A DNA stretch of 64,000 nucleotides from Patescibacteria group bacterium (GTDB taxonomy: Bacteria > Patescibacteriota > Patescibacteriia > Magasanikbacterales > JBBTQS01), in the NCBI GenBank assembly GCA_038065555.1, contig JBBTQS010000001.1:467901-531900 (forward strand), in the 5' to 3' direction. Shown here in pieces: positions 3,303 to 16,776 of the stretch (within the stretch, counting starts at the first letter, position 1; every line of letters begins with the position of its first letter). The position numbers and the translations under genes are program-made. A model generated the notes under the pieces. The model made no database searches, was not told where the DNA came from, and saw only the letters and a program-made list of their open reading frames with translations.

Positions 3303-3695
3303 TTACTCGTGATGCATTTCCAACCAGTCTTCGAGGAGCACCATGGCAGAACGCTCGTGAATACTCGATCCTGATCCACCGCGAGACGCAGCCTCACTAC
3401 TGGTGTGTGCTTCGGAATATGTCCGGACTTCACATGTCACCGCAGGGCGCAAAAGGTCTACAAATGTTTTGGTTCGTTTGGACTGTGCACTCTCATCACC
3501 TGAGAGCATGAGTGGCATACCCACAACGATCAGTCCGACTGATTCGCGCGCAACGTGCGCAGCAATCTGCGCGACGACTTGTGCATCATCAGTGCGTGCT
3601 ATGGTGCCATGCGGCAATGCAATACTCGTGCCGGCAGGCGCATACGCAAGTCCGACCCATTTGCTGCCGTAGTCTACGGCAAGGATATTTTTCAT
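3303..3695 (-). CDS. ruvX: Holliday-junction resolvase-like protein RuvX/YqgF
   Basis: The N-terminus MKNILAVDYGSKWVGLAYA matches the YqgF family. It is 130 aa and overlaps the end of map by 4 nt. Confidence 0.8.
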   Translation of the reverse strand: MKNILAVDYGSKWVGLAYAPAGTSIALPHGTIARTDDAQVVAQIAAHVARESVGLIVVGMPLMLSGDESAQSKRTKTFVDLLRPAVTCEVRTYSEAHTSSEAASRGGSGSSIHERSAMVLLEDWLEMHHE

Positions 3696-4489
3696 AGTTC
3701 ATCAGGTCGACGCGTTGCAACCACAGCTCCATCCTCAGTGATAATCACCGTGTGTTCGAAATGCGCAGAGTTCTTGCCGTCACGCGTCAGAATTGCCCAG
3801 CCATCACGCGCAATATCTACCTCATACGTACCTGCATTAATCATCGGCTCAATCGCAATGACCATGCCAGGAACCAACTTCTCAGTCGCAAACCGCTTGA
3901 GCCACACATTGGGAATATTTGGTTCTTCGTGTACTTCATGTCCCACACCATGTCCCACAAGCGCAACGACAATGCCATACCCAAATGGACGAATATATTC
4001 CTCCACCGCGCGACCAATATCAGCAATTGCAGATCCAGGTCCAACTGTTGCAATGGCGCGATACAACGACTGTTGCGTGCGTGTAAGGAGCTGCTGCGCT
4101 GATTGTGCAATAACACCCACGGGAACAGTGATAGCAGTATCTGTGAAAAGTCCTTTCTCTTTGCTCCCCTTCTTGTACGGCCACTCCATACCAATATCCA
4201 GACCAATAATGTCACCAGACTTGAGTGCGGTGTCGTTAGGAATACCATGCACAACCACCTCATTTACCGAGGTACACAATGTCGCTGGAAACCCTTTCTT
4301 GCCACCTGCCTTGTACCCCTTGAACGCTGGCTTGCCACCCACTTCAAGAATGCGACGCTCTGCAAGCGCGTCGAGCTCACGAGTCGTCACGCCAGGTGCA
4401 ACTGCTGCAGCAACTTCAGCCAGAATTTGGCCGAGCAATAGCCCACCTTCTTTAATTTTTGCAATTTCCTCGAGAGATTTGAGACGCAT
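3692..4489 (-). CDS. map: Methionine aminopeptidase type I
   Basis: Conserved MAP blocks: FKGYKAGGKKGFPATLCTSVNEVVVHGIP, HGVGHEVHEEP and IEPMINAG. I placed the start at the internal Met of MRLKSLEEIAK, 132 nt inside the track ORF 3692..4621. The longer ORF would overlap the next gene. Confidence 0.85.
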   Translation of the reverse strand: MRLKSLEEIAKIKEGGLLLGQILAEVAAAVAPGVTTRELDALAERRILEVGGKPAFKGYKAGGKKGFPATLCTSVNEVVVHGIPNDTALKSGDIIGLDIGMEWPYKKGSKEKGLFTDTAITVPVGVIAQSAQQLLTRTQQSLYRAIATVGPGSAIADIGRAVEEYIRPFGYGIVVALVGHGVGHEVHEEPNIPNVWLKRFATEKLVPGMVIAIEPMINAGTYEVDIARDGWAILTRDGKNSAHFEHTVIITEDGAVVATRRPDEL

Positions 4490-4500
4490 ACAAAGACAGC

Positions 4501-6267
4501 CTACCGCACCAGAGTGCTCGTGTCCATGGGCGTACTGTAGACTCGTACTTGCGCATCTTCGCGCACCAATTCCAGCCCTGCAACACGCGCCTCCAGATCG
4601 ATCTGCGCCGCGCGATACCAATACAAATGCACCACCACAAAGACTGGTCCTTCGATGCCTGCAATAGCCTCAGCAACCGACTGATGCAACAACACTTCTG
4701 ACCGAAGCGCGCTATCCCCCGTCGCATCCACAGGAAATCGAGATGGAAACCCATGTACTTTGAGCCCCGCTTGTGCGAAGACCTGATCACACAACACTGT
4801 GCCAGTAGTAATCCATTGCGCGCTGCGAATATCTGCACCCGAAACCACCCGCACCGTCGAACCTGCTGATGGATACATTGCGTACCAGCTCAACGTCATA
4901 GCAACTGCCAGAACAACAACCAGTGCGGCAGACTGCGTGCGTGCGGTGTATCTCGCTGCAGCGACTGCAATCGCCGGAACAATGACAACCAACGCGACGA
5001 GCAACAGGCGCCACGCATATTCATACTGATCAATCGCAGCAACATTCGGCGCCGGAACAAACATCCACAACAACACCGCGCTGATCCCAACACCAGCAAC
5101 AAGCCCACTCGCAACACGTCGATACATCTCAGGAACAAAAGAACGCGACTTCATGAGAATATATATTCCTGCAACCAAGAATCCCAATCGAACACCATAC
5201 GTGTTCATCACGAATTGCGCACCACTAACCCACGAATTCGCCTGTTCGAAAAATGGAACACCGCTGCGCATACGCATCCACCCAAACAATCCAACAAGTG
5301 CAAGCACAATCATGAACACACTACTTACCACGCTGACTCGTCCACGCACTCGCCACAACGCAATTGCTCCACTCAACGCTACAGGAATACCAATGAGCGG
5401 ATGAAGGAGACCCGTAGCGAGGATAAGTACTCCAAAAAACACTAAGACAGGGATCGTGTGCCTCGCTGCCAGCGGCGCAAGCAGCAGCAACACGACAGTC
5501 AACAATACTCCCGCACTCCACGGAGTAGACAGCACAAAAATCGGCACACTTACCACTCCCAGCAATACTGCAGCACGACGCGCTGTCAGCGCCTGCATCC
5601 CCCACAACACTTCAAATGCCCACGGAGCAACCCACGCCTGCATCATCGCCGCAGCTACCGGCACAATCCAAGTACTCAACAACGCAATGGGAATCGTAGT
5701 AACAAAATGTACTCCCGCCAACGCGGCGTAGTAGCTGCTATACAAGAACTGCAATGGCAACACCTGCCCATGCGCTACCACCTCACGTAGTGCTGCTTCA
5801 TGCACCACCGGATCAAATCCATACCCATGCACAAATACAAACTGCGCCAATCCGAATGTAACAAGCCCATGCAAGGCCAAAAGCATTCGACTCTCTTGAT
5901 TCCCGCGCATCAGGAGATACCACGTACCTAATCCGTACATCGCACAGACTACACCCGTAAGCCACGAACCGTACCACCACGGAGTAACCACTGCTGCATC
6001 AGTTCGCAACACCCACACTGGCGCAAGTACTATCGCAGCCACCAGTGCCTTGAGATACCACGCAACTGCGCCACCTTCACTTGAAGACACAACAGGAGCA
6101 GGTGCAGACTCGACGGAAACCCTTCGTGCCAACACCAACGCCAGCCCACCACTGATCACCAACACCACCACACTTGTAGCCAACGCAATCCCAAACAAAA
6201 AATATTGCGCTGTACACAGCGCAATACCCAACGAAATCCAGCTGATCGCAAAAATTACCAAGTTCAC
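4501..6267 (-). CDS. Polytopic integral membrane protein of 588 aa with at least 12 predicted TM helices and a ~120-aa C-terminal soluble domain. Function unknown; a GT-C-like glycosyltransferase is possible.
   Basis: Highly hydrophobic repetitive TM segments. A hydrophilic segment HGYGFDPVVHEAALREV follows the early helices. No confident family match. It is inserted between adk and map. Confidence 0.6.
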   Translation of the reverse strand: MNLVIFAISWISLGIALCTAQYFLFGIALATSVVVLVISGGLALVLARRVSVESAPAPVVSSSEGGAVAWYLKALVAAIVLAPVWVLRTDAAVVTPWWYGSWLTGVVCAMYGLGTWYLLMRGNQESRMLLALHGLVTFGLAQFVFVHGYGFDPVVHEAALREVVAHGQVLPLQFLYSSYYAALAGVHFVTTIPIALLSTWIVPVAAAMMQAWVAPWAFEVLWGMQALTARRAAVLLGVVSVPIFVLSTPWSAGVLLTVVLLLLAPLAARHTIPVLVFFGVLILATGLLHPLIGIPVALSGAIALWRVRGRVSVVSSVFMIVLALVGLFGWMRMRSGVPFFEQANSWVSGAQFVMNTYGVRLGFLVAGIYILMKSRSFVPEMYRRVASGLVAGVGISAVLLWMFVPAPNVAAIDQYEYAWRLLLVALVVIVPAIAVAAARYTARTQSAALVVVLAVAMTLSWYAMYPSAGSTVRVVSGADIRSAQWITTGTVLCDQVFAQAGLKVHGFPSRFPVDATGDSALRSEVLLHQSVAEAIAGIEGPVFVVVHLYWYRAAQIDLEARVAGLELVREDAQVRVYSTPMDTSTLVR

Positions 6268-6911
6268 AAACCCACGGCTGCAAAAACATCCTTCTGCACC
6301 GCTTCAATACTCTGCTGCCCATTAATGCGATGCACCAATCCCCGATCCGCATACACCGCAATAAGCGGCTGCGTCATTGCATGAAAAATTTCCAAACGCT
6401 TGCGGACTGCTTCCTCCACATCGTCCGCACGCTGTACGAGTTCCTCACCACACACGTCACACACACCTGCAACCTTCGAAGGATTGAAGTCCACGTGATA
6501 AATATGATTCTGTGTGCACTGCCGACGTCCTGTAATTCGACGAACTGCCTCGTCGTCGTCAATCTCAATCGCAATCACATGCGTAACAGTAGCAAATGTG
6601 TCGAGATCCTTCACCTGCTGCAGGTTACGAGGATACCCATCGAGAATCCAACCACCAACTGCGTCAGGCTCCTGCAATCTTGCAGCCACCAACGCGCCAC
6701 TTACTGAATCTGGAACCAAATTACCACCTTCAATAATAGCCTGGATCTGGACACCAATCTCTGTCTTACGCTTGATGTTGTCGCGCAACAACACCCCTGT
6801 TGAAATCGTGGGGATACACAAAGCCGCAGAGAGTCGTTCTCCCTGCGTGCCTTTGCCTGAGCCTTGGATACCCATGAGCAAGATGTGCTTTGGTCCCCCT
6901 AGTTCACCCAT
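6264..6911 (-). CDS. adk: Adenylate kinase
   Basis: P-loop GIQGSGKGTQ, ILDGYPRNLQQ, and a LID region with a Cys/His pattern (CTQNHIYH...VCDVCGEEL). 215 aa. Confidence 0.9.
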   Translation of the reverse strand: MGELGGPKHILLMGIQGSGKGTQGERLSAALCIPTISTGVLLRDNIKRKTEIGVQIQAIIEGGNLVPDSVSGALVAARLQEPDAVGGWILDGYPRNLQQVKDLDTFATVTHVIAIEIDDDEAVRRITGRRQCTQNHIYHVDFNPSKVAGVCDVCGEELVQRADDVEEAVRKRLEIFHAMTQPLIAVYADRGLVHRINGQQSIEAVQKDVFAAVGL

Positions 6912-6920
6912 ATCACCTAC

Positions 6921-7289
6921 CTATTTCTTGTGCTTCCAAACAATTGGGATAATACGTTTGCCAGCGATATCGTACGCTTGCTTCTCCGTGAAGTGGAACT
7001 TGTGCATCAACTTCGAAACCAGCGCGCGTTTGATATTCTCTGCATTCTCTTTTCCCTGATATTCCCAGCCATCACGATCTCCACCTTGCAGATCTCTCAC
7101 CACGTCATCAGCGATCGCATGTGCTGTCTCGTGATTCTTCAGATGATCGTACTTCTGCCCAATGAGCGGCTTCAGACTGTGATACACCTGTGATGCAACC
7201 TCGCGTCGTTCTCTGCCAGGACCTTTTTCACCGTGCTTGTTCTCACGGCGACCAGTAAATTGTCCGAGAATTCTATCAAGGAGTCCCAT
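6921..7289 (-). CDS. Hypothetical charged protein of 122 aa, tightly packed between secY and adk
   Basis: A clean ORF with K/E/R/H-rich, protein-like composition (...HETAHAIADDVVRDLQGGDRDGWEYQGKENAENIKRALVSKLMHKF...). The gaps to its neighbours are 9 nt and 26 nt. No recognisable family. Confidence 0.45.
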   Translation of the reverse strand: MGLLDRILGQFTGRRENKHGEKGPGRERREVASQVYHSLKPLIGQKYDHLKNHETAHAIADDVVRDLQGGDRDGWEYQGKENAENIKRALVSKLMHKFHFTEKQAYDIAGKRIIPIVWKHKK

Positions 7290-7315
7290 AGAGTGCGTTG
7301 GTTACGATGCGTGTA

Positions 7316-8599
7316 TTATACACCATCGTAACTGCGCATGCTCAATTGACCGTCGATTTGTTTCCAGGTTTCGATTGCTACACTTACAACGATGAGGATG
7401 CTGGTACCACCAATGCTCAACGCATTCGTACCGAGGAATCCCTGCACAACAAGTGGCAACACAGCGATAATCGAGAGGAAGAGTGCGCCAGCGAGTGTGA
7501 TGCGCATGATGACATTCGTGAGGTAGGTCGCTGTCTGAGAACCTGGACGAATACCTGGCACAAATGCACCTTGCTTTTGCAAATTCTCTGCCATGCGATC
7601 TGGGTGCACCACCACCGACGTGTAGAAGAAGGTGAAGGCGAAAACCAGAATGAAGTAGATAATGCCGTAGAAGGTCTGGTTCTGGAACATGCTCACAACC
7701 CAGTTAGCCGACGACGCAATCCAATCTGTCTGCGCGCGCACGAAGAACTGCGCGATAAGCGGTGGGAATGTCACCATCGAAATGGCGAAGATAATTGGAA
7801 TCACACCAGCCATGTTGACGCGAAGTGGCAATGACGTTGTCATACCAGATCCCACACGTGTCCCCTGCACTTGGCGTGCGTAAGACACTGGAATATTGCG
7901 CTGACCTTCGGTGATAAATACTACACCTACGATCGTAATAAGCACCAACACCACAATAGCGATCAAGAGTGGCAACTGTGATGGATCGTATGCGCCGATC
8001 AGGTTACCAATCGATGTTGGGAGCGAAGCAACGATACCTGCAAAAATGAGAAGTGAAATACCGTTACCCACCTTCTTCTCCGTGATCAACTCACCAATCC
8101 ACATGAGGAACGTCGTACCTGCAGTCGCCACCACCATAATAGTAAGGGTGTCGAACCAGGTCATATCAAGTGGCAAAATGTGCAACGATGAGCTGCGCAA
8201 CAACACAACGAGGCTATACGCCTGGATAAGTGCCAATGGAACAGAGAGATAACGAGTATACTGGTTGATCTTCTTCTGACCGAATTCACCATCCTTGGAC
8301 AATTCTTCGAGTCGTGGCACCACCATGGTGAGGAGCTGGAAGATAATTGACGAAGTGATGTACGGACCAACACCCAACATCAAGATGGAGAAGTTCTGCA
8401 ACGTACCACCAGAGAAAATGTTGAGGAGTCCGAGGAACTGGTTCCCTTCGAGGAAGAGACGCAAGTTATCTGTATTGATGCCTGGAACCGGGATGCTCGC
8501 GAGGAGTCGGAAGAGCACCAGCATTCCCAATACGTACAAGATGCTGTTGCGCAATTCCGGAATCGAGAAGATTTTTCGGAGGGTGTTCATAAACGGCAC
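7316..8599 (-). CDS. secY: Preprotein translocase subunit SecY
   Basis: 427-aa polytopic protein with SecY signatures (LGMLVLFRLLASIPVPGIN, GTTFLMWIGELITEKKVGNGISLLIF). It sits in the canonical position after rplO. Confidence 0.95.
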   Translation of the reverse strand: MPFMNTLRKIFSIPELRNSILYVLGMLVLFRLLASIPVPGINTDNLRLFLEGNQFLGLLNIFSGGTLQNFSILMLGVGPYITSSIIFQLLTMVVPRLEELSKDGEFGQKKINQYTRYLSVPLALIQAYSLVVLLRSSSLHILPLDMTWFDTLTIMVVATAGTTFLMWIGELITEKKVGNGISLLIFAGIVASLPTSIGNLIGAYDPSQLPLLIAIVVLVLITIVGVVFITEGQRNIPVSYARQVQGTRVGSGMTTSLPLRVNMAGVIPIIFAISMVTFPPLIAQFFVRAQTDWIASSANWVVSMFQNQTFYGIIYFILVFAFTFFYTSVVVHPDRMAENLQKQGAFVPGIRPGSQTATYLTNVIMRITLAGALFLSIIAVLPLVVQGFLGTNALSIGGTSILIVVSVAIETWKQIDGQLSMRSYDGV

Positions 8600-8646
8600 A
8601 TGAATGTTCGGCTAGCCACAACGGCCGGCCAAAAGACAGGCGTGGA

Positions 8647-9090
8647 TTACGCCTTCACCGAACCGCCAGCTTTTTCGATAGCTTCCTTAGCACTTGGGCT
8701 AACGGCGCAGCCAGCAACAGAGACTTTGCTTCGCATCTCACCGCCACCAACAATCTTCACCGCACCATACTGGGCAATGAGACCGAGCTTGAGGAGAGAG
8801 TGTGGAGTTACACGTCCTTCTGCCTTGCCTGCAAAAGCAGACGAGAGCATAGCGAGCGTAACAGTGTATGCCTTTGGAGCGAGACTCTTGAAGCCACGGT
8901 TCTTCGGCAAGTTGCGCAAGTTCATCATGAGTGAGCGACGGCTGATGCGATTGCTACCACCAGTACGTGCGCGCTGACCCTTGATACCACGACCACAGTA
9001 GTTGCCGTGTTTGCTGTCGCCACGACCAACACGCGTGCGGTTGCGGCGGCTCAGGGTATTCTTTTTGAGTGCGTGTGCAAGCGTTGACAT
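8647..9090 (-). CDS. rplO: 50S ribosomal protein L15
   Basis: RGDSKHGNYCGRGIKGQRARTGG... is typical of L15. 147 aa. Confidence 0.9.
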   Translation of the reverse strand: MSTLAHALKKNTLSRRNRTRVGRGDSKHGNYCGRGIKGQRARTGGSNRISRRSLMMNLRNLPKNRGFKSLAPKAYTVTLAMLSSAFAGKAEGRVTPHSLLKLGLIAQYGAVKIVGGGEMRSKVSVAGCAVSPSAKEAIEKAGGSVKA

Positions 9091-9094
9091 ACGG

Positions 9095-9721
9095 TTAGTT
9101 CTTGGAGCGCTGCAAACGCGTCAATTGCTCGAGTGCGTTGAATGCAGCCTTGATATTATTGATCTTGCTCTTGGATCCGAGAATCTTGCTCGAGATGTTC
9201 GGAATACCTGCGAATTCAAGTACGGTTCGGAGAGACCCACCAGCGATAACACCAGATCCTTTTGGTGCTGGCATGAGCTTCACGATCGCTGCGCCGAACT
9301 TCGCGTCTACTTCGTACGGGATTGTGTCCTTCACGAGTGGAACGCGAATGAGACGCTTCTTTGCCTGACGAACGGCTTTGTTCACTGCAGCCTGCACGTC
9401 TCCAGCCTTTGCAACGCCGAATCCAACGCGCAATTTGCGATCGCCGATAACAACGGTTGCGCGGAAACGCATGCGCTTACCACCCTTGGTCACACGCGTA
9501 ACACGTGCGAGCTCTACAATGGTCTGGTCGAACTCTGGTACTTCGCGCTCTTCGCGATTGCCACCACGTCCGCCATCGCGACGTCCGCCACCCTGACCGT
9601 CACGGCGAGGACCGCCTTGACCCTGACGTCCACCACCCATGCCACCCTGACGTGGACCATTCTGTGGAGCGACGGCACCAGGTGCCTGCTGCTTCGTTGG
9701 TTGTGTCGATGTGTCTGTCAT
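9095..9721 (-). CDS. rpsE: 30S ribosomal protein S5 with a Gly/Arg/Gln-rich low-complexity N-terminal extension
   Basis: S5 core VTRVTKGGKRMRFRATVVIGDRKLRVGFGVAKAGDV...GSGVIAGGSLRTVLEFAGI. I set the start at MTDTSTQ, 39 nt inside the track ORF, because that leaves an 8-nt gap to rplR. Confidence 0.9.
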   Translation of the reverse strand: MTDTSTQPTKQQAPGAVAPQNGPRQGGMGGGRQGQGGPRRDGQGGGRRDGGRGGNREEREVPEFDQTIVELARVTRVTKGGKRMRFRATVVIGDRKLRVGFGVAKAGDVQAAVNKAVRQAKKRLIRVPLVKDTIPYEVDAKFGAAIVKLMPAPKGSGVIAGGSLRTVLEFAGIPNISSKILGSKSKINNIKAAFNALEQLTRLQRSKN

Positions 9722-9728
9722 ACAATTT

Positions 9729-10100
9729 CTAGAAAATAAGGCCAGCCTCGCGTGCACCATCGGCTACCGCGCGTACACGACCATGATAGCGGAAACCACC
9801 ACGATCGAATACTACTGTGGTAATCCCCTTTGCTTTTGCTGCTTCTGCGATGGCCTTGCCTACGGCAAATGCGAGGGCAACCTTTGCGCTGCGCTCACCT
9901 GCTGCATCTACCTTCACTGCGCCGCTGTGTACCGCCACAATTGTGGTGCCTGCGGTGTCATCAATAAGCTGCGCATACATGCTGCGCGCGCCACGAAACA
10001 CGCTCAAGCGAGGACGCTCTGCGGTTCCACTAATCTTTGCACGAATGCGACCATGTCGGCGCATGCGCGTCACTGCTTTGTGCTGTGTAAACACTTTCAT
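9729..10100 (-). CDS. rplR: 50S ribosomal protein L18
   Basis: RPRLSVFRGARSMYAQLIDD...GKAIAEAAKAKGITTVVFDRGGFRYHGRVRAVADGAREAGLIF. Confidence 0.95.
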   Translation of the reverse strand: MKVFTQHKAVTRMRRHGRIRAKISGTAERPRLSVFRGARSMYAQLIDDTAGTTIVAVHSGAVKVDAAGERSAKVALAFAVGKAIAEAAKAKGITTVVFDRGGFRYHGRVRAVADGAREAGLIF

Positions 10101-10684
10101 AGTACCGTCGGTTTAATGAGATGGAGTAAAAATTCGAGATTCCCTCCTTTGGCTCCGGTGATGGGCGATGCAATCACGTCGACAATGGGCATGCCATCGG
10201 CGATCAGTGCTGCAACTACGCGATCCTTCTCAGCGATACACTCTTCGAGCGAGAGCATGCCATGGCTTTTGCCACGAGCATGTCCCACGCGTTCGTAGTG
10301 CGGCTTGAGAAGACTCACGATGTGCCCGCCTTCGCGGAGTATGGAGAGAGCGTGTGGGAGAATCCGGCTCTGTGGTGTCCAACCGACATCGATGGAGACC
10401 ACGTCTACTTGTTCCGGAATGACAACGGTCTGTGCGTCAGTGCGTTCGAGCACTACGACGCGCGGATCATTGCGCAACTTCCAGTCGAGTACGCCGTATC
10501 CTTTGTCCACTGCATAGACGCGCGAGGCGCCATGCGACAACCAGACTTCCGTAAATCCTCCTGCGTGACAGCCGAGATCTGCTGCAACCGCACCTTGGAT
10601 TGGGAGGTCTTTCCATGCATCACATGCATGTGCGAGCTTCGCACCTGCTCGGCTCACACCTGCATGCGATGCAGCAGACGACAT
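10097..10684 (-). CDS. tlyA: TlyA-like FtsJ-fold rRNA 2'-O-methyltransferase of 195 aa, lacking the N-terminal S4 RNA-binding domain. It is embedded in the spc ribosomal operon.
   Basis: Motifs SRAGAKLAHA, DLGCHAGGFTEVWLSHGASRVYAVDKGYGVLDWKLRNDPRVVVLERTD and LLKPHYE match TlyA/hemolysin-A-family methyltransferases. The start lies 7 nt after the rplF stop, and its stop overlaps the rplR start by 4 nt (ATGA). Confidence 0.75.
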   Translation of the reverse strand: MSSAASHAGVSRAGAKLAHACDAWKDLPIQGAVAADLGCHAGGFTEVWLSHGASRVYAVDKGYGVLDWKLRNDPRVVVLERTDAQTVVIPEQVDVVSIDVGWTPQSRILPHALSILREGGHIVSLLKPHYERVGHARGKSHGMLSLEECIAEKDRVVAALIADGMPIVDVIASPITGAKGGNLEFLLHLIKPTVL

Positions 10685-10691
10685 AGACGTA

Positions 10692-11231
10692 TTACGCCTT
10701 TGCGGTCTTACCTGCCTTGCGGCGAATCACTTCTTCTGCGTACTTGATACCCTTACCCTTGTATGGTTCAGGCTTGCGTACTTTGCGGATATTGCTTGCA
10801 ACCTGACCAACCGCCTGCTTGCTTGCGCCGCTGAGCGTGATCACGTTCTTCTCCACCACAGCAGTCACTCCTTCTGGGAGATCGTACTGTACAGAGTGCG
10901 AGTAGCCAACATCGAGCTTGATGCCCTTACCTGCTAGTGCAACCTTGTATCCGACACCATTGAGCTCGAGCTTGCGCTCAAATCCCTTGGTTACGCCATC
11001 AACCATGTTCTGAAGAAGACTTGCGTAGAGACCCCAAAGTGAGCGGTCTGCTTTCTTTTCTTCATCCTTCACTGCTACGTGGAGACCTTCGTCATCCTTC
11101 GTGATGGTGACGTGTGGGTGGATGCGCTCAAGAAGCGTACCCTTAGGTCCCTTTACTTTTACCTCAGCTGCAGTGAGTGTGACCTCAACGCCTGCTGGGA
11201 TTACGATGATTTGTTTGCCGATACGAGACAT
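10692..11231 (-). CDS. rplF: 50S ribosomal protein L6
   Basis: MSRIGKQIIVIPAGVEVTL... and the two-domain L6 pattern. The start is taken at MSRIGK, inside the track ORF. Confidence 0.95.
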   Translation of the reverse strand: MSRIGKQIIVIPAGVEVTLTAAEVKVKGPKGTLLERIHPHVTITKDDEGLHVAVKDEEKKADRSLWGLYASLLQNMVDGVTKGFERKLELNGVGYKVALAGKGIKLDVGYSHSVQYDLPEGVTAVVEKNVITLSGASKQAVGQVASNIRKVRKPEPYKGKGIKYAEEVIRRKAGKTAKA

Positions 11232-11241
11232 AGTCTTGCGA

Positions 11242-11631
11242 TTAGTACACGGTGCAAACCACTTCACCGCCGATGCCCGCTGTCTTTGCTTCCTTATTTG
11301 TCATAAGGCCGCGAGACGTGGACAAGATAGCAATACCGTAGTTGTTGCGAACCGTTGGCACATGGTCCTTGCCGACGTAGCGGCGGTGTCCTGGTGTGCT
11401 CACGCGCTGCACATCTGTGATCGCGCTCATGGAGCCACGATACTTGAGACGTACGCGAATGGTTGGACGAGGGTCTTCGACACGCACTGCCGACACAACA
11501 TAGCCTTCACGTACGAGGATTTCAGCAATAGCCATCTTCATTCCTGAAAGTGGGATATCTACCGATTCCTTGCGAACGCGTGCGGCGTTGCGAATGCGGG
11601 TGAGCATGTCTGCGATTGGATCTGTGAACAT
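11242..11631 (-). CDS. rpsH: 30S ribosomal protein S8
   Basis: MFTDPIADMLTRIRNA... is the canonical S8 N-terminus. The start is taken at the internal Met. Confidence 0.95.
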   Translation of the reverse strand: MFTDPIADMLTRIRNAARVRKESVDIPLSGMKMAIAEILVREGYVVSAVRVEDPRPTIRVRLKYRGSMSAITDVQRVSTPGHRRYVGKDHVPTVRNNYGIAILSTSRGLMTNKEAKTAGIGGEVVCTVY

Positions 11632-11635
11632 ACAA

Positions 11636-11821
11636 TTACCAGCTAGATTTACGAACGCCAGGGAGAAGTCCCTTGTTAGCCATTTCGCGGAAACAAATGC
11701 GGCAAAGATCGAAGTCACGCATGTAGCTGCGGAACCGACCACATGCAAAGCAACGACGTACTTTGCGTGTAGAGAACTTCGGTTCGGCCGCAGATTTTGC
11801 TCGGTGTGCTGCTGATGCCAT
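11636..11821 (-). CDS. rpsZ: 30S ribosomal protein S14 type Z (zinc-binding, 61 aa)
   Basis: [38 protein letters not shown] with a CxxC...CxxC motif. The start is set at [10 protein letters not shown]. Confidence 0.9.
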
Positions 11822-11831
11822 ACGTGTTCGA

Positions 11832-12365
11832 TTATTTCTTGAATGGGAAGCCGAGCTCCTCAAGGAGCACGCGCGATTCCTTCGCGTCAGTAGCCGACGT
11901 CACAAAGGTGATTTCGAGACCATGGACACGGGACGCATCTTCAGCAGTAACTTCTGGGAATGCGAGCTGTTCCTTGAATCCGATCGTGTAGTTGCCGTTC
12001 TTGTCGAATCCCTTGGTAGAAATACCGTGGAAATCGCGCACACGTGGGAACGTAATGCGGAGCAACTTCTCTGTGAAATCGTACATACGAGCGCCGCGAA
12101 GCGTCACCTTGAGACCGACCACCTGACCTTCGCGAACTTTGAAGTTCGAGATGGAAATGCGAGCAGTTGTGCGGATTGGCTTCTGACCTGTGATCTTAAC
12201 GATCGTCTTTTCTACGAAATCAACGTAGCCTTCGTCCTTGAGGTGCTTACCGACGCCTACGTTAATGACGACCTTCTGCAACTTCGGGAGTGAGAGGAGA
12301 TTGGTGCGACCGAGGCGCTCCTTGAGCTTCGGTACAACGGTTTTGAGGTAGTGTTCCTTAAGCAT
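11832..12365 (-). CDS. rplE: 50S ribosomal protein L5
   Basis: [19 protein letters not shown]...[12 protein letters not shown]...; the start is taken at the internal Met of the L5 N-terminus. Confidence 0.95.
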
Positions 12366-12369
12366 AGTA

Positions 12370-12669
12370 TTACTTCTTTGCCGTTGCCTTCTTCGTAGCC
12401 TTTGGCTTTGCAACCTTCTTCTCTTCCGAAGCAACTGCAGCTTCCTTCTCAACAAGTACTACATTGGAAGCGTGCAATGGCGCTGCAAATTCAACGCGCT
12501 GTCCAGGCTGACCCTGCTTCATCGAGCGCACGTGCTTCTTGAGCATGTTTGCACCCTCAACAACCACACGGTTTTCCTTTGGGAACACCTGAATGATCTT
12601 GCCTGTCTTACCTTTGTCTTTGCCAGCGATGATTTTCACTTGATCGCCGGTTTTGATTTTCATCTTCAT
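12370..12669 (-). CDS. rplX: 50S ribosomal protein L24 with a Lys-rich C-terminal tail
   Basis: MKMKIKTGDQVKIIAGKDKGKTGKI... is the KOW motif. The start is at 12669 (or at 12663). Confidence 0.9.
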   Translation of the reverse strand: MKMKIKTGDQVKIIAGKDKGKTGKIIQVFPKENRVVVEGANMLKKHVRSMKQGQPGQRVEFAAPLHASNVVLVEKEAAVASEEKKVAKPKATKKATAKK

Positions 12670-12679
12670 ACGGTTGGTA

Positions 12680-13051
12680 TTAGAGAACTTCCGGCGCAAG
12701 AGAAACAATCTTCTGGTAGCCAGCGTTGCGCAATTCGCGTGCTACTGGTCCAAAGATACGAGAACCCTTCGGCTCTTTGCTCTTTCGGTCGATAATAACT
12801 GCTGCGTTGTCGTCAAAACGAATGTACGTTCCGTCAGCGCGGCGGATCTCCTTGTGCTGTCGAACAATCACAGCGTGCACAACTTCAGACTTCTTGATAA
12901 GTCCGCGAGGCGCAGCCTGCTTCACAGCGCAGGTGATAATGTCGCCGATCTGTGCGTAACGCTTTTTGTAGCCGCCGAGTACACGGATACACTGGAGCTG
13001 CTTAGCTCCGGTGTTGTCCGCGACGACGAGCATGGAACGATGTTGAATCAT
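12680..13051 (-). CDS. rplN: 50S ribosomal protein L14
   Basis: [27 protein letters not shown]... Confidence 0.95.
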
Positions 13052-13063
13052 ACGGGTATCGTT

Positions 13064-13450
13064 TTATGCCTTGGATACAATGCGCCAGCGCTTCGTCTTG
13101 CTCATTGGGCGAGTTTCTTCCATCACCACAATATCGCCATCAACGAACTGGTCGTTCTCATTGTGTGCGTGGAACTTCTTGCTCACGCGGTAGCGCTTGC
13201 CATAGATCGGGTGAGCCTTCATGCGGTCCACACGAACAACGGCAGTTTGCTGCATTTTGGTGCTGACCACGACGCCAGTGATACGGCGGCGCTGACCATC
13301 ACGAACAACCGCCGGAGCTCCAGCACGTGGTGCGCGAGGCGCCTTTGGTGCTTTTGGTGCGGCTGCTGTCTTTGGTTTTGGAGCTGCCTTGGCTGCAGCG
13401 GGCTTCTTGCCAGCTGTCGCCTTGGAGCTTGCGGTTGTTTTCTTTTCCAT
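13064..13450 (-). CDS. rpsQ: 30S ribosomal protein S17 with a Lys/Ala/Pro-rich N-terminal extension
   Basis: S17 core RRRITGVVVSTKMQQTAVVRVDRMKAHPIYGKRYRVSKKFHAHNE, preceded by an AKAAPKPKTAAAPKAPKAPRAPRA repeat. Confidence 0.9.
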   Translation of the reverse strand: MEKKTTASSKATAGKKPAAAKAAPKPKTAAAPKAPKAPRAPRAGAPAVVRDGQRRRITGVVVSTKMQQTAVVRVDRMKAHPIYGKRYRVSKKFHAHNENDQFVDGDIVVMEETRPMSKTKRWRIVSKA

Positions 13451-13459
13451 AGACTGAAA

Positions 13460-13660
13460 TTATTTTGTGGCTGTTTGCCCCATCTGTGTGAGGCACGTTT
13501 CCACACGGGCGACGTCACGCTTGAGGTTGCGCAACTTGCGCACATTGCGTTCCTGCCCGGCGAACAATGCGAATTCGATCTGCAAGCGCTCTGCCTTCAA
13601 CTCGCGGAGCATCTTGAGAAGCTCTGCGTGTGGTTTGGTGCGAAGATCTTTGATCGTCAT
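13460..13660 (-). CDS. rpmC: 50S ribosomal protein L29
   Basis: MTIKDLRTKPHAELLKMLRELKAERLQIEFALFAGQ...; the start is at the internal Met, placing it immediately after the rplP stop. Confidence 0.9.
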   Translation of the reverse strand: MTIKDLRTKPHAELLKMLRELKAERLQIEFALFAGQERNVRKLRNLKRDVARVETCLTQMGQTATK

Positions 13661-13661
13661 A

Positions 13662-14072
13662 TTACTTGCGAACAAATCGAGTAAGGCATGGAAGCTTGTA
13701 TGCTGCGAGATCCATTGCCTCGCGAGCTGTAGCTTCTGGAACACCATCGATCTCGAACATTACTGTACCTGGACGAACCACACATACGTAGTGGTCTACC
13801 GAACCCTTACCAGATCCCATCGGTACCTCAGCACCCTTCTTGGTGATTGGTTTGTCTGGGAAGATACGGATCCAAATCTTACCGCCACGTGCCACAAAAC
13901 GTGTCATAGCACGACGTGCAGCTTCGATCTGTCGGCTCGTAACCCATGCATGGGTTGTCGCCTTGAGGCCATAGCTACCGAACGCCACGGTCAACTTCGT
14001 GGTCGCGATGCCTTTCATGCGTCGGCGACCCTTCATCCACTTGCGGTGTTTTACTTTTTTTGGAAGCAACAT
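13662..14072 (-). CDS. rplP: 50S ribosomal protein L16
   Basis: [38 protein letters not shown]... Confidence 0.95.
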
Positions 14073-14082
14073 AGACGTTCAG

Positions 14083-14760
14083 TTAGGCGTTTTTCTCTTG
14101 AGCGAACTTGTCCTGCTTGCCGCCGAACACGAGACCACGGTTGATCCACACCTTGATACCAATCTTGCCGTACATGGTGTGCGCTTCGGTGTGTGCGTAA
14201 TCAATGTCAGCGCGAAGTGTCTGGAGAGGAATCTTGCCCTGTGCAAGTGTTTCGGTACGAGCAATTTCTGCGCCGTTGAGACGTCCAGACATTGTGCACT
14301 TCACACCCTCAGCTCCTGCCTTCATCACACGTTCAATCGCGGACTTCATCACACGGCGAAATGCCATGCGCTTCTTCGTGTCGTCAACAATCTGCTCAGC
14401 CACAATCGCGGACGAAAGAGATGGCTGCTTCACTTCGAACACCTGTACCTTGACCTTCGAATCCTTCGCAAAGTACTTGGTCTGGAGTTCTTTCTTGAGA
14501 TCTTCGATACCAGCGCCGCCGCGACCGATAATCACACCTGGCTTTGCAACGAGTGCCGAAACCGTCACTTCATTCGCATTGCGTGCGATAGAGAGTGAGT
14601 CAAGACCTGCCTCGCGCAATTTCTTCGTAAGGAATTTGCGCACTGCAACTTCCTCTTTGAGGAGCGCGGTGTATGGCTTGCCGTGACGTCCGAACCAGCG
14701 GGAATCCCACGGATAGAGAATGGTCAAGCGGTGTGCTTTTGGATGTACGTTGTGACCCAT
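14083..14760 (-). CDS. rpsC: 30S ribosomal protein S3
   Basis: MGHNVHPKAHRLTILYPWDSRWFG... with a KH domain plus the S3 C-terminal domain. 225 aa. Confidence 0.95.
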   Translation of the reverse strand: MGHNVHPKAHRLTILYPWDSRWFGRHGKPYTALLKEEVAVRKFLTKKLREAGLDSLSIARNANEVTVSALVAKPGVIIGRGGAGIEDLKKELQTKYFAKDSKVKVQVFEVKQPSLSSAIVAEQIVDDTKKRMAFRRVMKSAIERVMKAGAEGVKCTMSGRLNGAEIARTETLAQGKIPLQTLRADIDYAHTEAHTMYGKIGIKVWINRGLVFGGKQDKFAQEKNA

Positions 14761-14771
14761 AGTGTTGTGTG

Positions 14772-15164
14772 TTACTCAGCCTTTGCTTCAACCACTGCTT
14801 CACTGGAAGCTGGCTGTGCATCTGGTGCCGTGCCCTGGAGTGTTACCCACACGTGGCAGCTGTGGCGACGAATCGGCGCAGCGGTACCACGAGCGCGAGG
14901 CATCGAGCGATACTGCATCGAACCCTTGTTCACCTGAATGGTGTGGATAACAAGCGTCGAAGCATCTGCTTTGCTGTTGTGTACGGCGTTCGCTTCTGCG
15001 CTCTTGATGAGCTTCATGACTGGCTTGCGAGCTGCCTTGTTCATTGCGGAGAGCTGCGCATATGCCTGTTCGATCGGAAGACCACGAACGAGGTCGACTA
15101 CAAGACGCACCTTCTTGTCAGAAATGTGCAGGCCGTTGAGTCGTGCTTCTGCTTGAATCGTCAT
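14772..15164 (-). CDS. rplV: 50S ribosomal protein L22
   Basis: AEARLNGLHISDKKVRLVVDLVRGLPIEQAYAQL... Confidence 0.9.
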   Translation of the reverse strand: MTIQAEARLNGLHISDKKVRLVVDLVRGLPIEQAYAQLSAMNKAARKPVMKLIKSAEANAVHNSKADASTLVIHTIQVNKGSMQYRSMPRARGTAAPIRRHSCHVWVTLQGTAPDAQPASSEAVVEAKAE

Positions 15165-15173
15165 ATGCGGAAA

Positions 15174-15494
15174 TTATTTCTTTGGTGCTGGCTTTGCCGC
15201 TGCTGGCTTGGCGCCTGGGGCGTCAGTCTTGAGCATCTTACCGCCATGGCGGAAGAATTTGCGGGTTGGTGAGAATTCACCAAGCTTGTGTCCAACCATA
15301 TCTTCAATGACAAGTACTTCAATGAAGTCCTTACCATTGTGCACCGCGAACTTGAGACCAACCATTTCTGGCGTGATCGTGCTGCGGCGGGACCAGGTCT
15401 TGATAGGCAGCGTCGAGCGAACTGCGCGTGCTGCATCTACCTTCTTCTGGAGTTTTTCGTCTACGAATGGGCCTTTTTTGAGACTGCGAGACAT
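15174..15494 (-). CDS. rpsS: 30S ribosomal protein S19 with an Ala/Lys/Pro-rich C-terminal tail
   Basis: [20 protein letters not shown]...[29 protein letters not shown]. Confidence 0.95.
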
Positions 15495-15496
15495 AC

Positions 15497-16345
15497 TTAC
15501 TTGGTGTTACCACGACGTGGACGACGTGACACAATAAATCTGTCACTCGCTTTCTTCGGCTTGCGGGTCTTAACACCCAACGCCTTCTTACCCCATGGGG
15601 TCTTCGGTGCCTTGAGACCGATAGAGTTCTTACCTTCACCACCACCGTGTGGGTGATCTACTGGGTTCATAACCTTACCACGAACCGACGGACGGATACC
15701 GCGATGGCGTGAGCGACCTGCCTTACCGAGGCGCACGAGACGATGGTCAGGGTTGCTCACCATGCCAACGCTTGCTGATGCTTCCTTCGGAATGAGGCGA
15801 ACTTCGCCTGATGGCATCTTCACGTGAGCGAATTTGCCTTCGATAGCCATGAGCTGCACCTGTACACCTGCACTGCGAGCCACCTTTGCGCCAGTACCTG
15901 GAGCCAACTCGATGTTGTGCAAGAAGGTACCAACTGGGATGAACTCAAGTGGCATGCGTGTGCCAAGCTTTGCATCAATCGCTTTTTGCGAAGAGATCAC
16001 GGTTGCGCCTACTGCAAGTGTATCTGGGGCAACAATATATGCGCGTTCCTTGTCTGCAGTGTACTCAATGAGTGCAATGCGAGAGTTGCGGTTCGGATCG
16101 TACTCGATCGCGATAACCGTTGCAGGAATGTCGTAGCGCTTCTGATAGAAATCAACAAGACGAATGTAGCGCTTGTGGCCACCGCCCTGATGACGCACAG
16201 TGATTGTACCATTGGTACGACCAGAATGCTTCTTACGAATAATGATGAGCTTTTTTTCTGGCTCCCACTTCGTAATATCCTGATACGCATCGACGCTCGC
16301 GATGCGTCGACCACTGTTATTTGCGTTGTACTTCTTAATCGGCAT
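15497..16345 (-). CDS. rplB: 50S ribosomal protein L2
   Basis: 282 aa; ...[11 protein letters not shown]... is the L2 signature. Confidence 0.95.
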
Positions 16346-16355
16346 AGAGGTTCAG

Positions 16356-16766: not shown

Positions 16767-16776
16767 AGGATTCTGC

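What the first reader, a model, noticed from the sequence alone, without database searches (positions are those of the whole stretch)
10097..10684. S4-less TlyA-like rRNA 2'-O-methyltransferase translationally coupled inside the spc ribosomal-protein operon
A 195-aa FtsJ-fold methyltransferase with clear TlyA-family motifs sits between rplF and rplR, with a 7-nt gap upstream and a 4-nt ATGA overlap downstream. It is therefore co-transcribed and translationally coupled with ribosomal proteins. Canonical TlyA has an N-terminal S4 RNA-binding domain and is encoded elsewhere in the genome. Placing an rRNA-modification enzyme inside the operon implies stoichiometric co-expression with ribosome components. 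The missing S4 domain suggests it is recruited by another route.
Basis: partly seen in the sequence, partly recalled or inferred. Interest (0 to 1): 0.55.

Follow-up and report, generated by a model that had tools for sequence, protein, structure and literature searches.

The report
S4-less TlyA methyltransferase inside ribosomal operon
A real, selectively maintained RNA ribose-methyltransferase gene of the TlyA type, lacking TlyA's usual RNA-docking domain, has been inserted between two ribosomal-protein genes in one small lineage of Patescibacteria; it belongs to a large uncharacterised subfamily that repeatedly sits next to ribosome genes in several phyla.

Summary
Window 10097-10684 (-) encodes a 195-aa FtsJ-fold protein 7 nt after the rplF stop, overlapping the rplR start by ATGA. 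Its best sequence and fold matches are TlyA catalytic domains. The K-D-K-E tetrad, SAM motif and three essential RNA-contact residues are kept. The S4 domain is absent.

It is not a chimera: the same arrangement occurs in at least five independent assemblies, under purifying selection (dN/dS 0.13-0.18).

The placement is narrow. Only one small Patescibacteria clade has it. A nested relative and three outgroups have rplF directly next to rplR, which implies one gain and one loss.

The protein is not unusual in itself. S4-less TlyA-like proteins are a large subfamily (thousands of sequences in Patescibacteria, Planctomycetota and others) with diagnostic substitutions.

New here: the subfamily is repeatedly linked to translation genes. 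Examples are rpsJ-MT-rplC with a 1-nt overlap in Microgenomates/Woesebacteria and rpsT directly upstream in 23 loci.

"Stoichiometric co-expression" is not supported. Codon adaptation is enzyme-like and the start region is among the most structured in the operon, as in the trmD operon. The target nucleotide is unknown.

Verdict: a new variant of a known kind, of moderate interest.

The parts
10097..10684 (-). CDS of the 195-aa S4-less TlyA-subfamily SAM-dependent RNA 2'-O-methyltransferase. Catalytic tetrad: K16, D99, K127, E184. SAM motif I: D36-x-G38...G42-G43-F44.
   Evidence: Residue mapping. AlphaFold2 pLDDT 91.9. The six best Foldseek PDB hits are all TlyA, TM 0.79-0.83. dN/dS 0.13-0.18.
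10692..11231 (-). rplF (uL6), the upstream neighbour. Its stop codon TAA is at 10692-10694.
   Evidence: Pfam Ribosomal_L6 2e-35. The N-terminus MSRIGKQ aligns with orthologs.
10685..10691 (-). 7-nt rplF-MT spacer (TACGTCT). It has no Shine-Dalgarno and carries the same ...TCT-ATG junction style as L16, L2 and S17 in this operon.
10097..10100 (-). ATGA overlap between the MT stop codon and the rplR start codon. It is conserved in window, L001-L003 and L008.
9729..10100 (-). rplR (uL18), the downstream neighbour.
   Evidence: Pfam Ribosomal_L18p 2.3e-39.
10657..10709 (-). Predicted mRNA hairpins that enclose the MT start codon (-19.4 kcal/mol, z = -2.6). This is the most stable initiation region in the operon. 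The exact structure is not conserved in orthologs, although their initiation regions are also comparatively stable.
3692..18740 (-). The surrounding S10-spc-type r-protein super-operon: rpsJ ... rplF-MT-rplR-rpsE-rplO-secY-orf122-adk-orf588-map. Genes are mostly joined by 4-13-nt gaps or 4-nt overlaps and almost none has a Shine-Dalgarno. There is no rpmD (L30).

Best explanation
The ORF encodes a functional SAM-dependent RNA ribose 2'-O-methyltransferase. It belongs to a large, coherent, S4-less subfamily of the TlyA family and most likely acts on ribosomal RNA or the ribosome.

Shown: the TlyA catalytic domain is intact. The protein has the class I fold, the K-D-K-E tetrad and SAM motif I. 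It also keeps the three C-terminal-domain residues that are individually essential in M. tuberculosis TlyA for gripping a helical hairpin and stabilising a flipped target nucleotide: R65->R12, Y115->Y63 and F157->W102.

Inferred: the enzyme flips out and methylates the 2'-OH of a nucleotide in an H69-like rRNA hairpin. H69 C1920 is the leading candidate. The protein also lacks both elements linked to 30S recognition (the extreme N-terminus and the helix after beta7), which makes 16S C1409 less likely. Because the S4 module that reads the base of H69 is missing, site selection must come from the catalytic domain alone, from an assembly intermediate, or from a partner acting in trans.

Shown: the gene entered the spc operon once, in the ancestor of a small Patescibacteria clade. 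It was fitted to the operon's SD-less, tightly spaced junctions (7-nt gap upstream, ATGA overlap downstream). It has co-diverged with its neighbours and was later lost or moved in one descendant lineage.

Inferred: it is co-transcribed with the r-protein genes, so its mRNA supply follows ribosome synthesis. It is probably translated less efficiently than its neighbours, as in the trmD operon, and not stoichiometrically.
For: Family and fold:
- Pfam FtsJ 3.6e-22.
- NCBIfam TlyA models are the best hits, 8.7e-29 and 1.1e-24.
- PDB sequence hits at about 1e-25 are all TlyA.
- AlphaFold2 pLDDT is 91.9, and the six best Foldseek hits are all TlyA (TM 0.79-0.83, E 1e-14 to 1e-18). The next fold scores 1e-9.

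Residues (roles from PMC9168844):
- The tetrad, R12 and W102 are invariant or nearly so in 205 S4-less sequences.
- Y63 is kept in 92% of them.

Functionality:
- dN/dS is 0.13-0.18, against 0.09-0.13 for L6 and L18, with equal amino-acid divergence.

Not a chimera:
- The arrangement is identical in GCA_964627055.1, GCA_013558295.1, Logan SRR33557408, Logan SRR22216449 and the window's own 881-kb contig.

Single gain and one loss:
- The MT clade has 100% bootstrap support.
- The concatenated operon-protein tree is ((window, L001), (L008, L091)) with 90% and 98% support. L091 lacks the gene, as do L092, L093 and L094.

Co-transcription and coupling:
- No terminator-like or promoter-like site flanks the gene.
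- The junctions match those of the other operon genes.

Lower translation:
- CAI is 0.55, 0.51 and 0.67 in the three lineages.
- The initiation region is the most structured in the window and L002 operons and second in L008.
- The trmD operon provides the precedent.

Link to translation for the whole subfamily (37 of 82 other loci have translation genes nearby):
- rpsJ-MT-rplC with a 1-nt overlap in L057 and L058.
- rpsT directly upstream in 23 loci.
- prfB directly upstream in 2 loci.
- EF-G-family gene, MT, then yebC in 2 loci.
- YacP-NYN gene directly downstream in 2 loci.
Against: - There is no biochemical or modification-mapping evidence, and the target nucleotide is unknown.
- In Mtb TlyA the S4 residues R6 and R20 are individually essential for 50S methylation. 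A catalytic domain alone would therefore not be expected to work on the canonical substrate in the canonical way.
- The subfamily has lost R137 (85-90% conserved in canonical TlyA) and carries systematic changes around the active site: S-F-I to G-W-T, L to Q105, Q-F to H-Y. These may indicate a different substrate.
- In the window and L001 sublineage, the linker aromatic (Mtb W62; F or Y in most of the subfamily) is Gly.
- The protein scores below the curated NCBIfam TlyA cut-offs (100.5 against 185.8, and 87.2 against 250).
- The gene was lost or moved in L091, and 79 of 80 species-representative homolog loci have no L6 or L18 nearby. The operon position is therefore dispensable.
- CAI and folding energies are only proxies for expression. 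The specific hairpin is not conserved, and z is about 0 in L001 and L008.
- The many rpsT-linked loci are phylogenetically non-independent.
Confidence: 0.68

Rival explanations
1. The operon position has no functional meaning. A housekeeping methyltransferase gene landed between rplF and rplR by chance and stays because insertion there is tolerated and provides expression. The position says nothing about stoichiometry, timing or the substrate.
For: The arrangement is limited to one small clade. It is absent from the nested relative L091 and from L092, L093 and L094. It is also absent from 79 of 80 species-representative loci. This lineage's operon tolerates other non-ribosomal insertions, namely orf122 and orf588. 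Codon adaptation remains enzyme-like.
Against: The same subfamily was independently inserted at another r-protein junction, rpsJ-MT-rplC with a 1-nt overlap. It is also linked to rpsT, prfB, an EF-G-family gene and yebC in other phyla. This recurrence is hard to explain by chance. The junctions have been remodelled to the operon's own style.
Confidence: 0.3
2. The S4-less subfamily has a different substrate from canonical TlyA. Candidates are another rRNA position, 5S rRNA, tRNA, or an assembly intermediate. It is therefore a functionally distinct paralog, not a truncated TlyA.
For: The S4 module, described as the reader of the base of H69, is missing (PMC9168844). The subfamily differs from canonical TlyA at several positions: W102, T103, Q105, H129, Y130 and the loss of R137. 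In the NJ tree, 86 of 90 S4-less sequences fall in one clade. As far as I recall, canonical tlyA usually lies near nadK and recN, which differs from the contexts seen here; I did not test this.
Against: The three essential hairpin-binding and base-flip residues of the catalytic domain are conserved. Canonical TlyAs are still 40-46% identical, only slightly less than other S4-less members at about 50%. The bootstrap for the subfamily split is weak, 32%. Whether both forms occur in one genome could not be determined.
Confidence: 0.3
3. One reading: the enzyme is made in a 1:1 ratio with ribosomal proteins because it is translationally coupled to them. It acts as a quasi-stoichiometric ribosome component or assembly factor.
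For: The gap upstream is 7 nt and the overlap with rplR is ATGA, conserved in all orthologs. Nearly all genes in the operon lack a Shine-Dalgarno, so termination-reinitiation may be the main way internal genes are translated. If rplR translation depends on ribosomes finishing the MT gene, MT translation cannot be far below that of L18.
Against: CAI is clearly below the r-protein genes in the window and L002 and at the bottom of their range in L008. The MT start region is the most, or second most, structured in each operon. In E. coli, trmD and rimM show about 10-fold lower ribosome density than their r-protein neighbours on the same mRNA. An enzyme is not needed in stoichiometric amounts.
Confidence: 0.12
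4. The arrangement is an assembly or binning chimera, or the ORF is a chance ORF or pseudogene.
For: None was found. The source is a metagenome-assembled genome, so this had to be checked.
Against: The same gene order and junctions occur in at least 5 independent assemblies at 99%, 91% and 72% identity. GC and GC3 match the neighbouring genes. dN/dS is 0.13-0.18 and the catalytic motifs are intact.
Confidence: 0.01

Closest known systems
TlyA, the 16S/23S rRNA (cytidine-2'-O)-methyltransferase (M. tuberculosis Rv1694; PDB 7S0S, 5KS2, 5EOV; homologs 3HP7, 3OPN)
   Same: Same catalytic-domain fold, with TM 0.79-0.83 and 34-38% identity. Same K-D-K-E tetrad and SAM motif. The essential RNA-contact and base-flip residues R65, Y115 and F157 are conserved (as R, Y and W). 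The VSRxGxKL segment that follows the linker is also present.
   Different: There is no S4 N-terminal domain, so the essential R6 and R20 are absent. There is no extension after beta7. R137 is lost. The subfamily carries the signature G-W-T, Q, H-Y in place of S-F-I, L, Q-F. The linker aromatic is Gly in the window protein. The protein scores below the curated TlyA cut-offs. Its genomic context is among r-protein genes.
RlmE (FtsJ/RrmJ), the 23S U2552 2'-O-methyltransferase
   Same: It is a stand-alone FtsJ-fold domain of about 200 aa with a K-D-K-E tetrad and no accessory RNA-binding domain. This shows that a bare FtsJ domain can select an rRNA site. As far as I recall, RlmE does this on late assembly intermediates.
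   Different: Sequence similarity is negligible: TIGR00438 gives 11 bits against a cut-off of 300. No RlmE structure appears among the best fold hits.
The E. coli trmD operon (rpsP-rimM-trmD-rplS)
   Same: An RNA methyltransferase gene embedded between r-protein genes on one transcript. The enzyme genes are translated about 10-fold less than their neighbours (PMC4378010). It is the best model for how the locus here is probably expressed.
   Different: TrmD is a SPOUT-fold tRNA m1G37 methyltransferase and is unrelated in sequence. The operon and junction architecture differ. The trmD arrangement is widespread, whereas this one is confined to a small clade.
Other members of the S4-less TlyA subfamily, for example Woesebacteria UBA1430 (L058), Microgenomatus (L057) and the rpsT-linked copies in Planctomycetota
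   Same: Same domain architecture and signature residues. They are also adjacent to, or embedded among, translation genes. In L057 and L058 the gene is translationally coupled (TAATG) inside the r-protein super-operon.
   Different: The insertion point differs (rpsJ|rplC, or downstream of rpsT, instead of rplF|rplR). Identity to the window protein is only 43-53%. These are independent events in other lineages.

Membership tests
TlyA family rRNA (cytidine-2'-O)-methyltransferase | Class I (FtsJ-type) SAM-methyltransferase catalytic domain most similar to TlyA | tested here: met
   Pfam FtsJ 3.6e-22. The only PDB sequence hits below 1e-5 are TlyA entries. The six best Foldseek hits are all TlyA, TM 0.79-0.83.
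TlyA family rRNA (cytidine-2'-O)-methyltransferase | K-D-K-E catalytic tetrad (Mtb K69, D154, K182, E238) and SAM motif I | tested here: met
   The window protein has K16, D99, K127, E184 and D36-x-G38..G42-G43-F44. These are invariant or nearly invariant in 205 subfamily sequences.
TlyA family rRNA (cytidine-2'-O)-methyltransferase | N-terminal S4 RNA-binding domain, with R6 and R20 essential for 50S recognition | tested here: not met
   NCBIfam alignments start at profile position 56. Only about 9 residues precede the VSRxGxKL motif, and the upstream frame is closed by rplF. There is no S4 Pfam hit, whereas canonical representatives do hit PF01479.
TlyA family rRNA (cytidine-2'-O)-methyltransferase | Curated whole-protein score cut-offs of the NCBIfam TlyA models | tested here: not met
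   TIGR00478 scores 100.5 bits against a cut-off of 185.8. NF049952 scores 87.2 against 250.
TlyA family rRNA (cytidine-2'-O)-methyltransferase | Catalytic-domain residues essential for H69 binding and base flipping (R65, Y115, F157) | tested here: met
   These map to R12, Y63 and W102 (aromatic retained). In the subfamily R is present in 204 of 205, Y in 189 of 205 and W in 205 of 205. Roles are taken from PMC9168844.
TlyA family rRNA (cytidine-2'-O)-methyltransferase | Supporting RNA-contact residue R137 (85-90% conserved) and the interdomain-linker aromatic (W62 of RAWV) | tested here: not met
   R137 corresponds to Q85 in the window protein and to L or M in the subfamily, against R in 53 of 65 canonical sequences. 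W62 corresponds to G9 in the window and L001, although it is F or Y in most of the subfamily and Y in L008.
TlyA family rRNA (cytidine-2'-O)-methyltransferase | Catalyses Cm at 23S C1920 and/or 16S C1409 | not testable with these tools
   There is no rRNA gene in the window and no modification data. This needs biochemistry or RiboMeth-seq.
RlmE/FtsJ (23S U2552 2'-O-methyltransferase) | Match to the RlmE equivalog model | tested here: not met
   TIGR00438 scores 11.1 bits against a cut-off of 300.15.
RNA-modification gene embedded in an r-protein operon (trmD-operon type organisation) | Co-directional with r-protein genes on both sides, with no intervening terminator or promoter | tested here: met
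   Gaps are 7 nt and -4 nt. No terminator-like or promoter-like site lies on the minus strand between 9700 and 11300. The arrangement is conserved in orthologs.
RNA-modification gene embedded in an r-protein operon (trmD-operon type organisation) | Enzyme gene translated less efficiently than the flanking r-protein genes | tested here: inconclusive
   The proxies point that way. CAI is 0.51-0.67 against 0.64-0.82 for r-proteins. The start-region MFE is -12 to -19 kcal/mol against mostly -1 to -9. No expression data exist, and the hairpin itself is not conserved.

The most novel reading that the evidence does not exclude
S4-less TlyA enzymes are a distinct class of ribosome-modifying enzymes that have handed substrate recognition to something outside the protein. 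That could be a nascent assembly intermediate or a ribosomal protein or factor acting in trans. On this reading, their repeated and independent capture into r-protein operons (rplF|rplR here, rpsJ|rplC in Microgenomates, rpsT linkage in Planctomycetota) reflects a need to be produced at the site and time of ribosome assembly. They may also methylate a position other than C1920 or C1409.
Probability: 0.15. Interest if true: 0.7.

Novelty: new variant of a known kind. Interest (0 to 1): 0.42.

Why it matters
In M. tuberculosis TlyA, the S4 domain is essential for finding the enzyme's ribosomal target. Here a very large natural subfamily does without that domain yet keeps the catalytic and base-flipping residues. 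Its genes have been drawn repeatedly into ribosomal-protein operons or placed next to other translation genes.

This provides a natural experiment on how a bare FtsJ-fold domain selects an rRNA site. It also gives a concrete candidate for an uncharacterised rRNA modification in Patescibacteria and Planctomycetota, groups whose ribosomes are already known to be unusual.

For annotation, these proteins are currently labelled inconsistently. Labels seen include 'SAM-dependent methyltransferase', 'TlyA family' and a dual 16S/23S enzyme name. The dual-specificity label is probably unjustified, because the elements linked to 30S recognition are absent.

The specific rplF-MT-rplR placement is a lineage-level gene-order curiosity and not a general principle.

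Tried and rejected
1. Assembly chimera: rejected, because the arrangement is identical in at least 5 independent assemblies.

2. A canonical TlyA or paralog in the window: none found. The rest of the genome could not be reached.

3. The 244-nt non-coding gap between rpsJ and rplC (18152-18395) as a decayed remnant of a methyltransferase once located there, as in L057 and L058: rejected. hmmsearch --max with the family HMM on all six frames gave nothing, and blastn-short gave only chance 8-11-mers.

4. P0243 (S4 plus two FtsJ stretches) as evidence that canonical and S4-less forms co-occur: rejected. It is a single canonical sequence with an exact internal duplication, an artefact.

5. A conserved regulatory hairpin at the MT start: only partly upheld. 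It is strong in the window (z = -2.6), but in L001 and L008 folding is no better than in shuffled sequences.

6. Horizontal origin of the operon copy: unresolved. The nearest sister in the NJ tree is L009, which is not a CPR organism, at about 50% bootstrap.

8. First NJ bootstrap with Biopython: timed out and was redone in numpy.

9. Rfam scan of the window: no hits.

10. Literature searches for TlyA in the CPR, or for a methyltransferase between rplF and rplR: nothing relevant.
Full report

Yes. The minus strand of the window carries an ATG-initiated ORF of 195 codons at 10097..10684.

- The raw sequence shows the rplF stop codon TAA at 10692-10694 and a 7-nt spacer (TACGTCT).
- At the other end, a four-base ATGA holds both the ORF's TGA stop and the rplR ATG.
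- Pfam identifies the neighbours as Ribosomal_L6 (2e-35) and Ribosomal_L18p (2.3e-39), and the ORF as FtsJ (3.6e-22, 79.6 bits against a cut-off of 24.1).
- GC content (0.56) and GC3 (0.55) match the neighbouring genes.
- No terminator-like or promoter-like site lies on the minus strand between rplF and rplR. Across the operon, such sites are no more frequent than in shuffled sequence.

**2. What is the protein?**

- NCBIfam's best hits are the two TlyA models: TIGR00478 (8.7e-29) and NF049952 (1.1e-24). They align only from profile position 56 onward, after the S4 domain, so both scores fall below the curated cut-offs. The RlmE model scores 11 bits.
- All PDB sequence hits below 1e-5 are TlyA entries: Mtb 5KS2, 7S0S and 5EOV, plus 3OPN and 3HP7.
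- An AlphaFold2 model built from a 120-sequence alignment is confident (pLDDT 91.9, pTM 0.88). Its six best Foldseek matches in the PDB are all TlyA structures (TM 0.79-0.83, E 1e-14 to 6.5e-18). The next fold, NodS, scores 1.5e-9.

I mapped the residues that the Mtb 50S-TlyA cryo-EM study found to matter (PMC9168844) onto the window protein and onto 205 subfamily sequences:

| Mtb TlyA residue | Window protein | Subfamily |
|---|---|---|
| Tetrad K69, D154, K182, E238 | K16, D99, K127, E184 | invariant or nearly so |
| R65 (essential) | R12 | 204 of 205 |
| Y115 (essential) | Y63 | 189 of 205 |
| F157 (essential base-flip stacker) | W102 | W in 205 of 205 |
| R133 | R81 | 197 of 205 |
| R137 (85-90% conserved in TlyA) | Q85 | L or M |
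| W62 (linker aromatic) | G9 | F or Y in most; Y in L008 |

The essential NTD residues R6 and R20 have no counterpart because the whole S4 domain is absent. The model ends 5 residues after the last core strand. The helix after beta7, which the paper links to 30S recognition in TlyA-II enzymes, is therefore absent too.

**3. Is the S4-less state peculiar to this locus?**

No.

- The word-indexed search returned 7,622 hits. The best 120 are nearly all 170-215 aa and carry only the FtsJ domain. Where named, they are called 'TlyA family', 'SAM-dependent methyltransferase' or the KEGG-style dual 16S/23S name, and they come from Patescibacteria, Planctomycetota and others.
- The exhaustive HMMER search found 6,842 cluster representatives at E <= 1e-3. 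Short forms rank highest. Canonical-length forms follow closely at 40-46% identity, with the match beginning near residue 60. Pfam confirms that those canonical forms have S4+FtsJ.
- The S4-less forms carry diagnostic substitutions relative to canonical TlyA: G101-W102-T103 for S-F-I, Q105 for L, H129-Y130 for Q-F, and L/M85 for R.
- In a neighbour-joining tree 86 of 90 fall in one clade, although that exact split has only 32% bootstrap support.
- The exact window protein is deposited as MEK7647868.1, 'SAM-dependent methyltransferase [Patescibacteria group bacterium]', on an 881-kb contig.

**4. How widespread is the rplF-MT-rplR arrangement?**

- Homologs at 91% identity have it in three independent assemblies, with the ATGA overlap.
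- A 72%-identical homolog (L008) has it too. Its true start is an ATG 8 nt after the rplF stop.
- Homologs at 52-58% identity lie in unrelated contexts.
- Of 80 loci from species-representative genomes, only the one from the window's own clade has L6 or L18 within 4 kb.
- I used SecY as a ladder of relatedness. By SecY the organism is a Patescibacteria bacterium, and its nearest named relatives are Magasanikbacteria and Uhrbacteria. Relatives L091, L092, L093 and L094 have rplF directly followed by rplR, with gaps of 5-19 nt.
- A concatenated tree of 11 operon proteins (1,806 columns) gives ((window, L001), (L008, L091)), with 90% support for L008+L091 and 98% for the four-taxon clade.
- The methyltransferases of window, L001 and L008 form a clade with 100% support. 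They have diverged exactly as much as their neighbours: 72% identity for the methyltransferase against 71% for the concatenate.
- The simplest history is one insertion in the clade's ancestor followed by loss or relocation in the L091 lineage.
- dN/dS is 0.13-0.18 for the methyltransferase and 0.09-0.13 for L6 and L18. The gene is therefore functional.

**5. Does embedding imply stoichiometric production?**

Probably not.

- In this operon almost no gene has a Shine-Dalgarno. Genes are mostly joined by 4-13-nt gaps or 4-nt overlaps, and many gaps end in ...(C/G)TCT-ATG. The methyltransferase junction looks like those of L16, L2 and S17. This fits full integration into the operon's translational regime and allows termination-reinitiation coupling.
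- Codon adaptation, measured against the r-protein genes, is 0.547 for the methyltransferase. This matches Adk (0.556), Map (0.551) and the class II aminoacyl-tRNA synthetase (0.555), against 0.64-0.79 for the r-proteins.
- Its initiation region is by far the most stable in the operon: -19.4 kcal/mol against -1 to -9, with the AUG enclosed in a hairpin.
- The same two trends hold in L002 (CAI 0.511, -15.0 kcal/mol, the most stable start region in that operon).
- They also hold in L008 (CAI 0.667, below all of its r-protein genes, and -12.4 kcal/mol, the second most stable).
- The particular hairpin is not conserved, and in L001 and L008 it is no better than shuffles.
- In the E. coli rpsP-rimM-trmD-rplS operon, ribosome density on rimM and trmD is about ten-fold lower than on the flanking r-protein genes at equal mRNA level (PMC4378010). 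That is the closest precedent.

**6. A result beyond the original finding**

I screened the flanks of the 82 homolog loci outside the window clade for translation genes. 37 have at least one within 4 kb.

- In L058 (Woesebacteria UBA1430) and L057 (Microgenomatus sp.), the order is tuf-rpsJ-MT-rplC-rplD. The methyltransferase ATG overlaps the S10 stop codon as TAATG. This is a second, independent, translationally coupled insertion into the r-protein super-operon at a different junction.
- L024 has a looser version of the same arrangement.
- In 23 loci, mostly labelled Planctomycetota or Phycisphaerae, rpsT (bS20; Pfam PF01649, 5.9e-28) lies directly upstream on the same strand, within 400 nt.
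- prfB lies directly upstream in L015 and L023.
- An EF-G-family gene and yebC flank the gene in two Latescibacteria loci.
- A YacP-type NYN gene follows it in two Falkowbacteria loci.

The rpsT cases are phylogenetically non-independent. Even so, there are at least four distinct kinds of association in different phyla. This supports a ribosome- or translation-related role for the whole subfamily. It also argues that the window's arrangement is one instance of a recurrent tendency and not a pure accident.

**7. Mechanism**

- Shown: an intact TlyA-type catalytic domain under selection, with conserved hairpin-gripping and base-flip residues. It is co-directional and tightly joined within an r-protein operon.
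- Inferred: the enzyme 2'-O-methylates a nucleotide flipped out of an rRNA hairpin. H69 C1920 is the first candidate, because the 30S-associated elements are missing. The gene is co-transcribed with r-protein genes, so its mRNA supply tracks ribosome synthesis, and it is translated below r-protein level.
- Unknown: how the target is selected without the S4 module; whether canonical TlyA co-exists in the same genomes; and the actual target.

**8. Novelty**

I found no paper on S4-less TlyA in these phyla or on a methyltransferase between rplF and rplR. Embedding RNA-modification genes in r-protein operons is a known theme (trmD), and automated pipelines already annotate the subfamily. I therefore rate this a new variant of a known kind, of moderate interest. 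The subfamily-wide pattern is more interesting than the single locus.

Noticed in passing
L058:3681-5333 and L057:3681-5341 (also L024:2314-5340): In Woesebacteria UBA1430 and Microgenomatus sp., a member of the same S4-less TlyA subfamily sits between rpsJ (S10) and rplC (L3). Its ATG overlaps the S10 stop codon (TAATG). This is an independent insertion into the r-protein super-operon at a different junction.
   Followed up: yes
23 loci among L020-L090 (e.g. L040, L026, L069, L046, L071): In genomes mostly labelled Planctomycetota or Phycisphaerae, the S4-less TlyA gene lies directly downstream of rpsT (bS20) on the same strand, at a distance of 22-400 nt. Other recurrent neighbours are prfB (L015, L023), an EF-G-family gene plus yebC (L060, L074), a YacP-type NYN gene (L012, L014) and a UMP-kinase-like gene (L056).
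   Followed up: partly
window 6921-7289 (-): A 122-aa ORF with no Pfam or NCBIfam match lies between secY and adk. An ORF in the same position occurs in L001, L008, L091, L092 and L093, but identity is only 17-62%, so it evolves fast. It is absent from the Magasanikbacteria locus L094.
   Followed up: partly
window 4501-6267 (-): A 588-aa predicted multi-pass membrane protein with no Pfam hit is inserted between adk and map and overlaps the adk stop by 4 nt. It is present in L001 and L002 (581 aa). L092 has a 661-aa ORF and L093 a 377-aa ORF in the corresponding region, but their homology was not checked. It is absent in L008 and L091.
   Followed up: no
window 18152-18395 (-): A 244-nt non-coding gap lies between rpsJ and rplC in an otherwise tightly packed operon. 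A sigma-70-like site (TTGACA-17-TAGAGT, 10 of 12 matches) sits at its 5' edge. There is no Rfam hit, and it is not a remnant of a methyltransferase gene.
   Followed up: partly
window 3692-18740 (-): Nearly all genes of the S10-spc operon lack a Shine-Dalgarno (anti-SD duplex energy of 0 to -4 kcal/mol). They are mostly joined by 4-13-nt gaps or 4-nt overlaps, and many gaps end in (C/G)TCT-ATG or CGT-ATG. This suggests SD-independent or reinitiation-based translation. There is no rpmD (L30) between rpsE and rplO, which fits the known CPR trait.
   Followed up: partly
window 9095-9760 (-), 13064-13450 (-), 12370-12708 (-): Three r-proteins carry low-complexity extensions. S5 has an N-terminal Gly/Arg/Gln-rich stretch of about 70 aa (GGMGGGRQGQGGPRRDGQGGGRRDGGRGGN). 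S17 has an N-terminal Ala/Lys/Pro-rich stretch of about 40 aa. L24 has a C-terminal Lys/Ala-rich tail.
   Followed up: no
P0252, P0346, P0314; L006:5513-6561, L021: Unusual architectures occur in the family. One protein is an AAA_18 kinase-like domain fused to an S4-less FtsJ domain (P0252). Another is S4+FtsJ+NUDIX (P0346). Two Patescibacteria loci (L006, L021) have a gene overlapping the start of the S4-less MT gene by 3-4 nt; in L006 it is a NUDIX gene (Pfam record), and in L021 it looked NUDIX-like by eye but was not checked with Pfam. In P0314, roughly 200 extra residues interrupt the methyltransferase domain; part of the insert looked endonuclease-like to me, but I did not check it with any tool.
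   Followed up: no
L011, L013, L018, L023, L024, L049, L082 (record titles): Several MAG records titled 'uncultured Gammaproteobacteria' or 'Pseudomonadales' (binchicken and SRP co-assemblies) carry Patescibacteria-type loci. L011 is the same contig as L001, in the window's own clade. These taxonomic labels therefore look unreliable.
   Followed up: no
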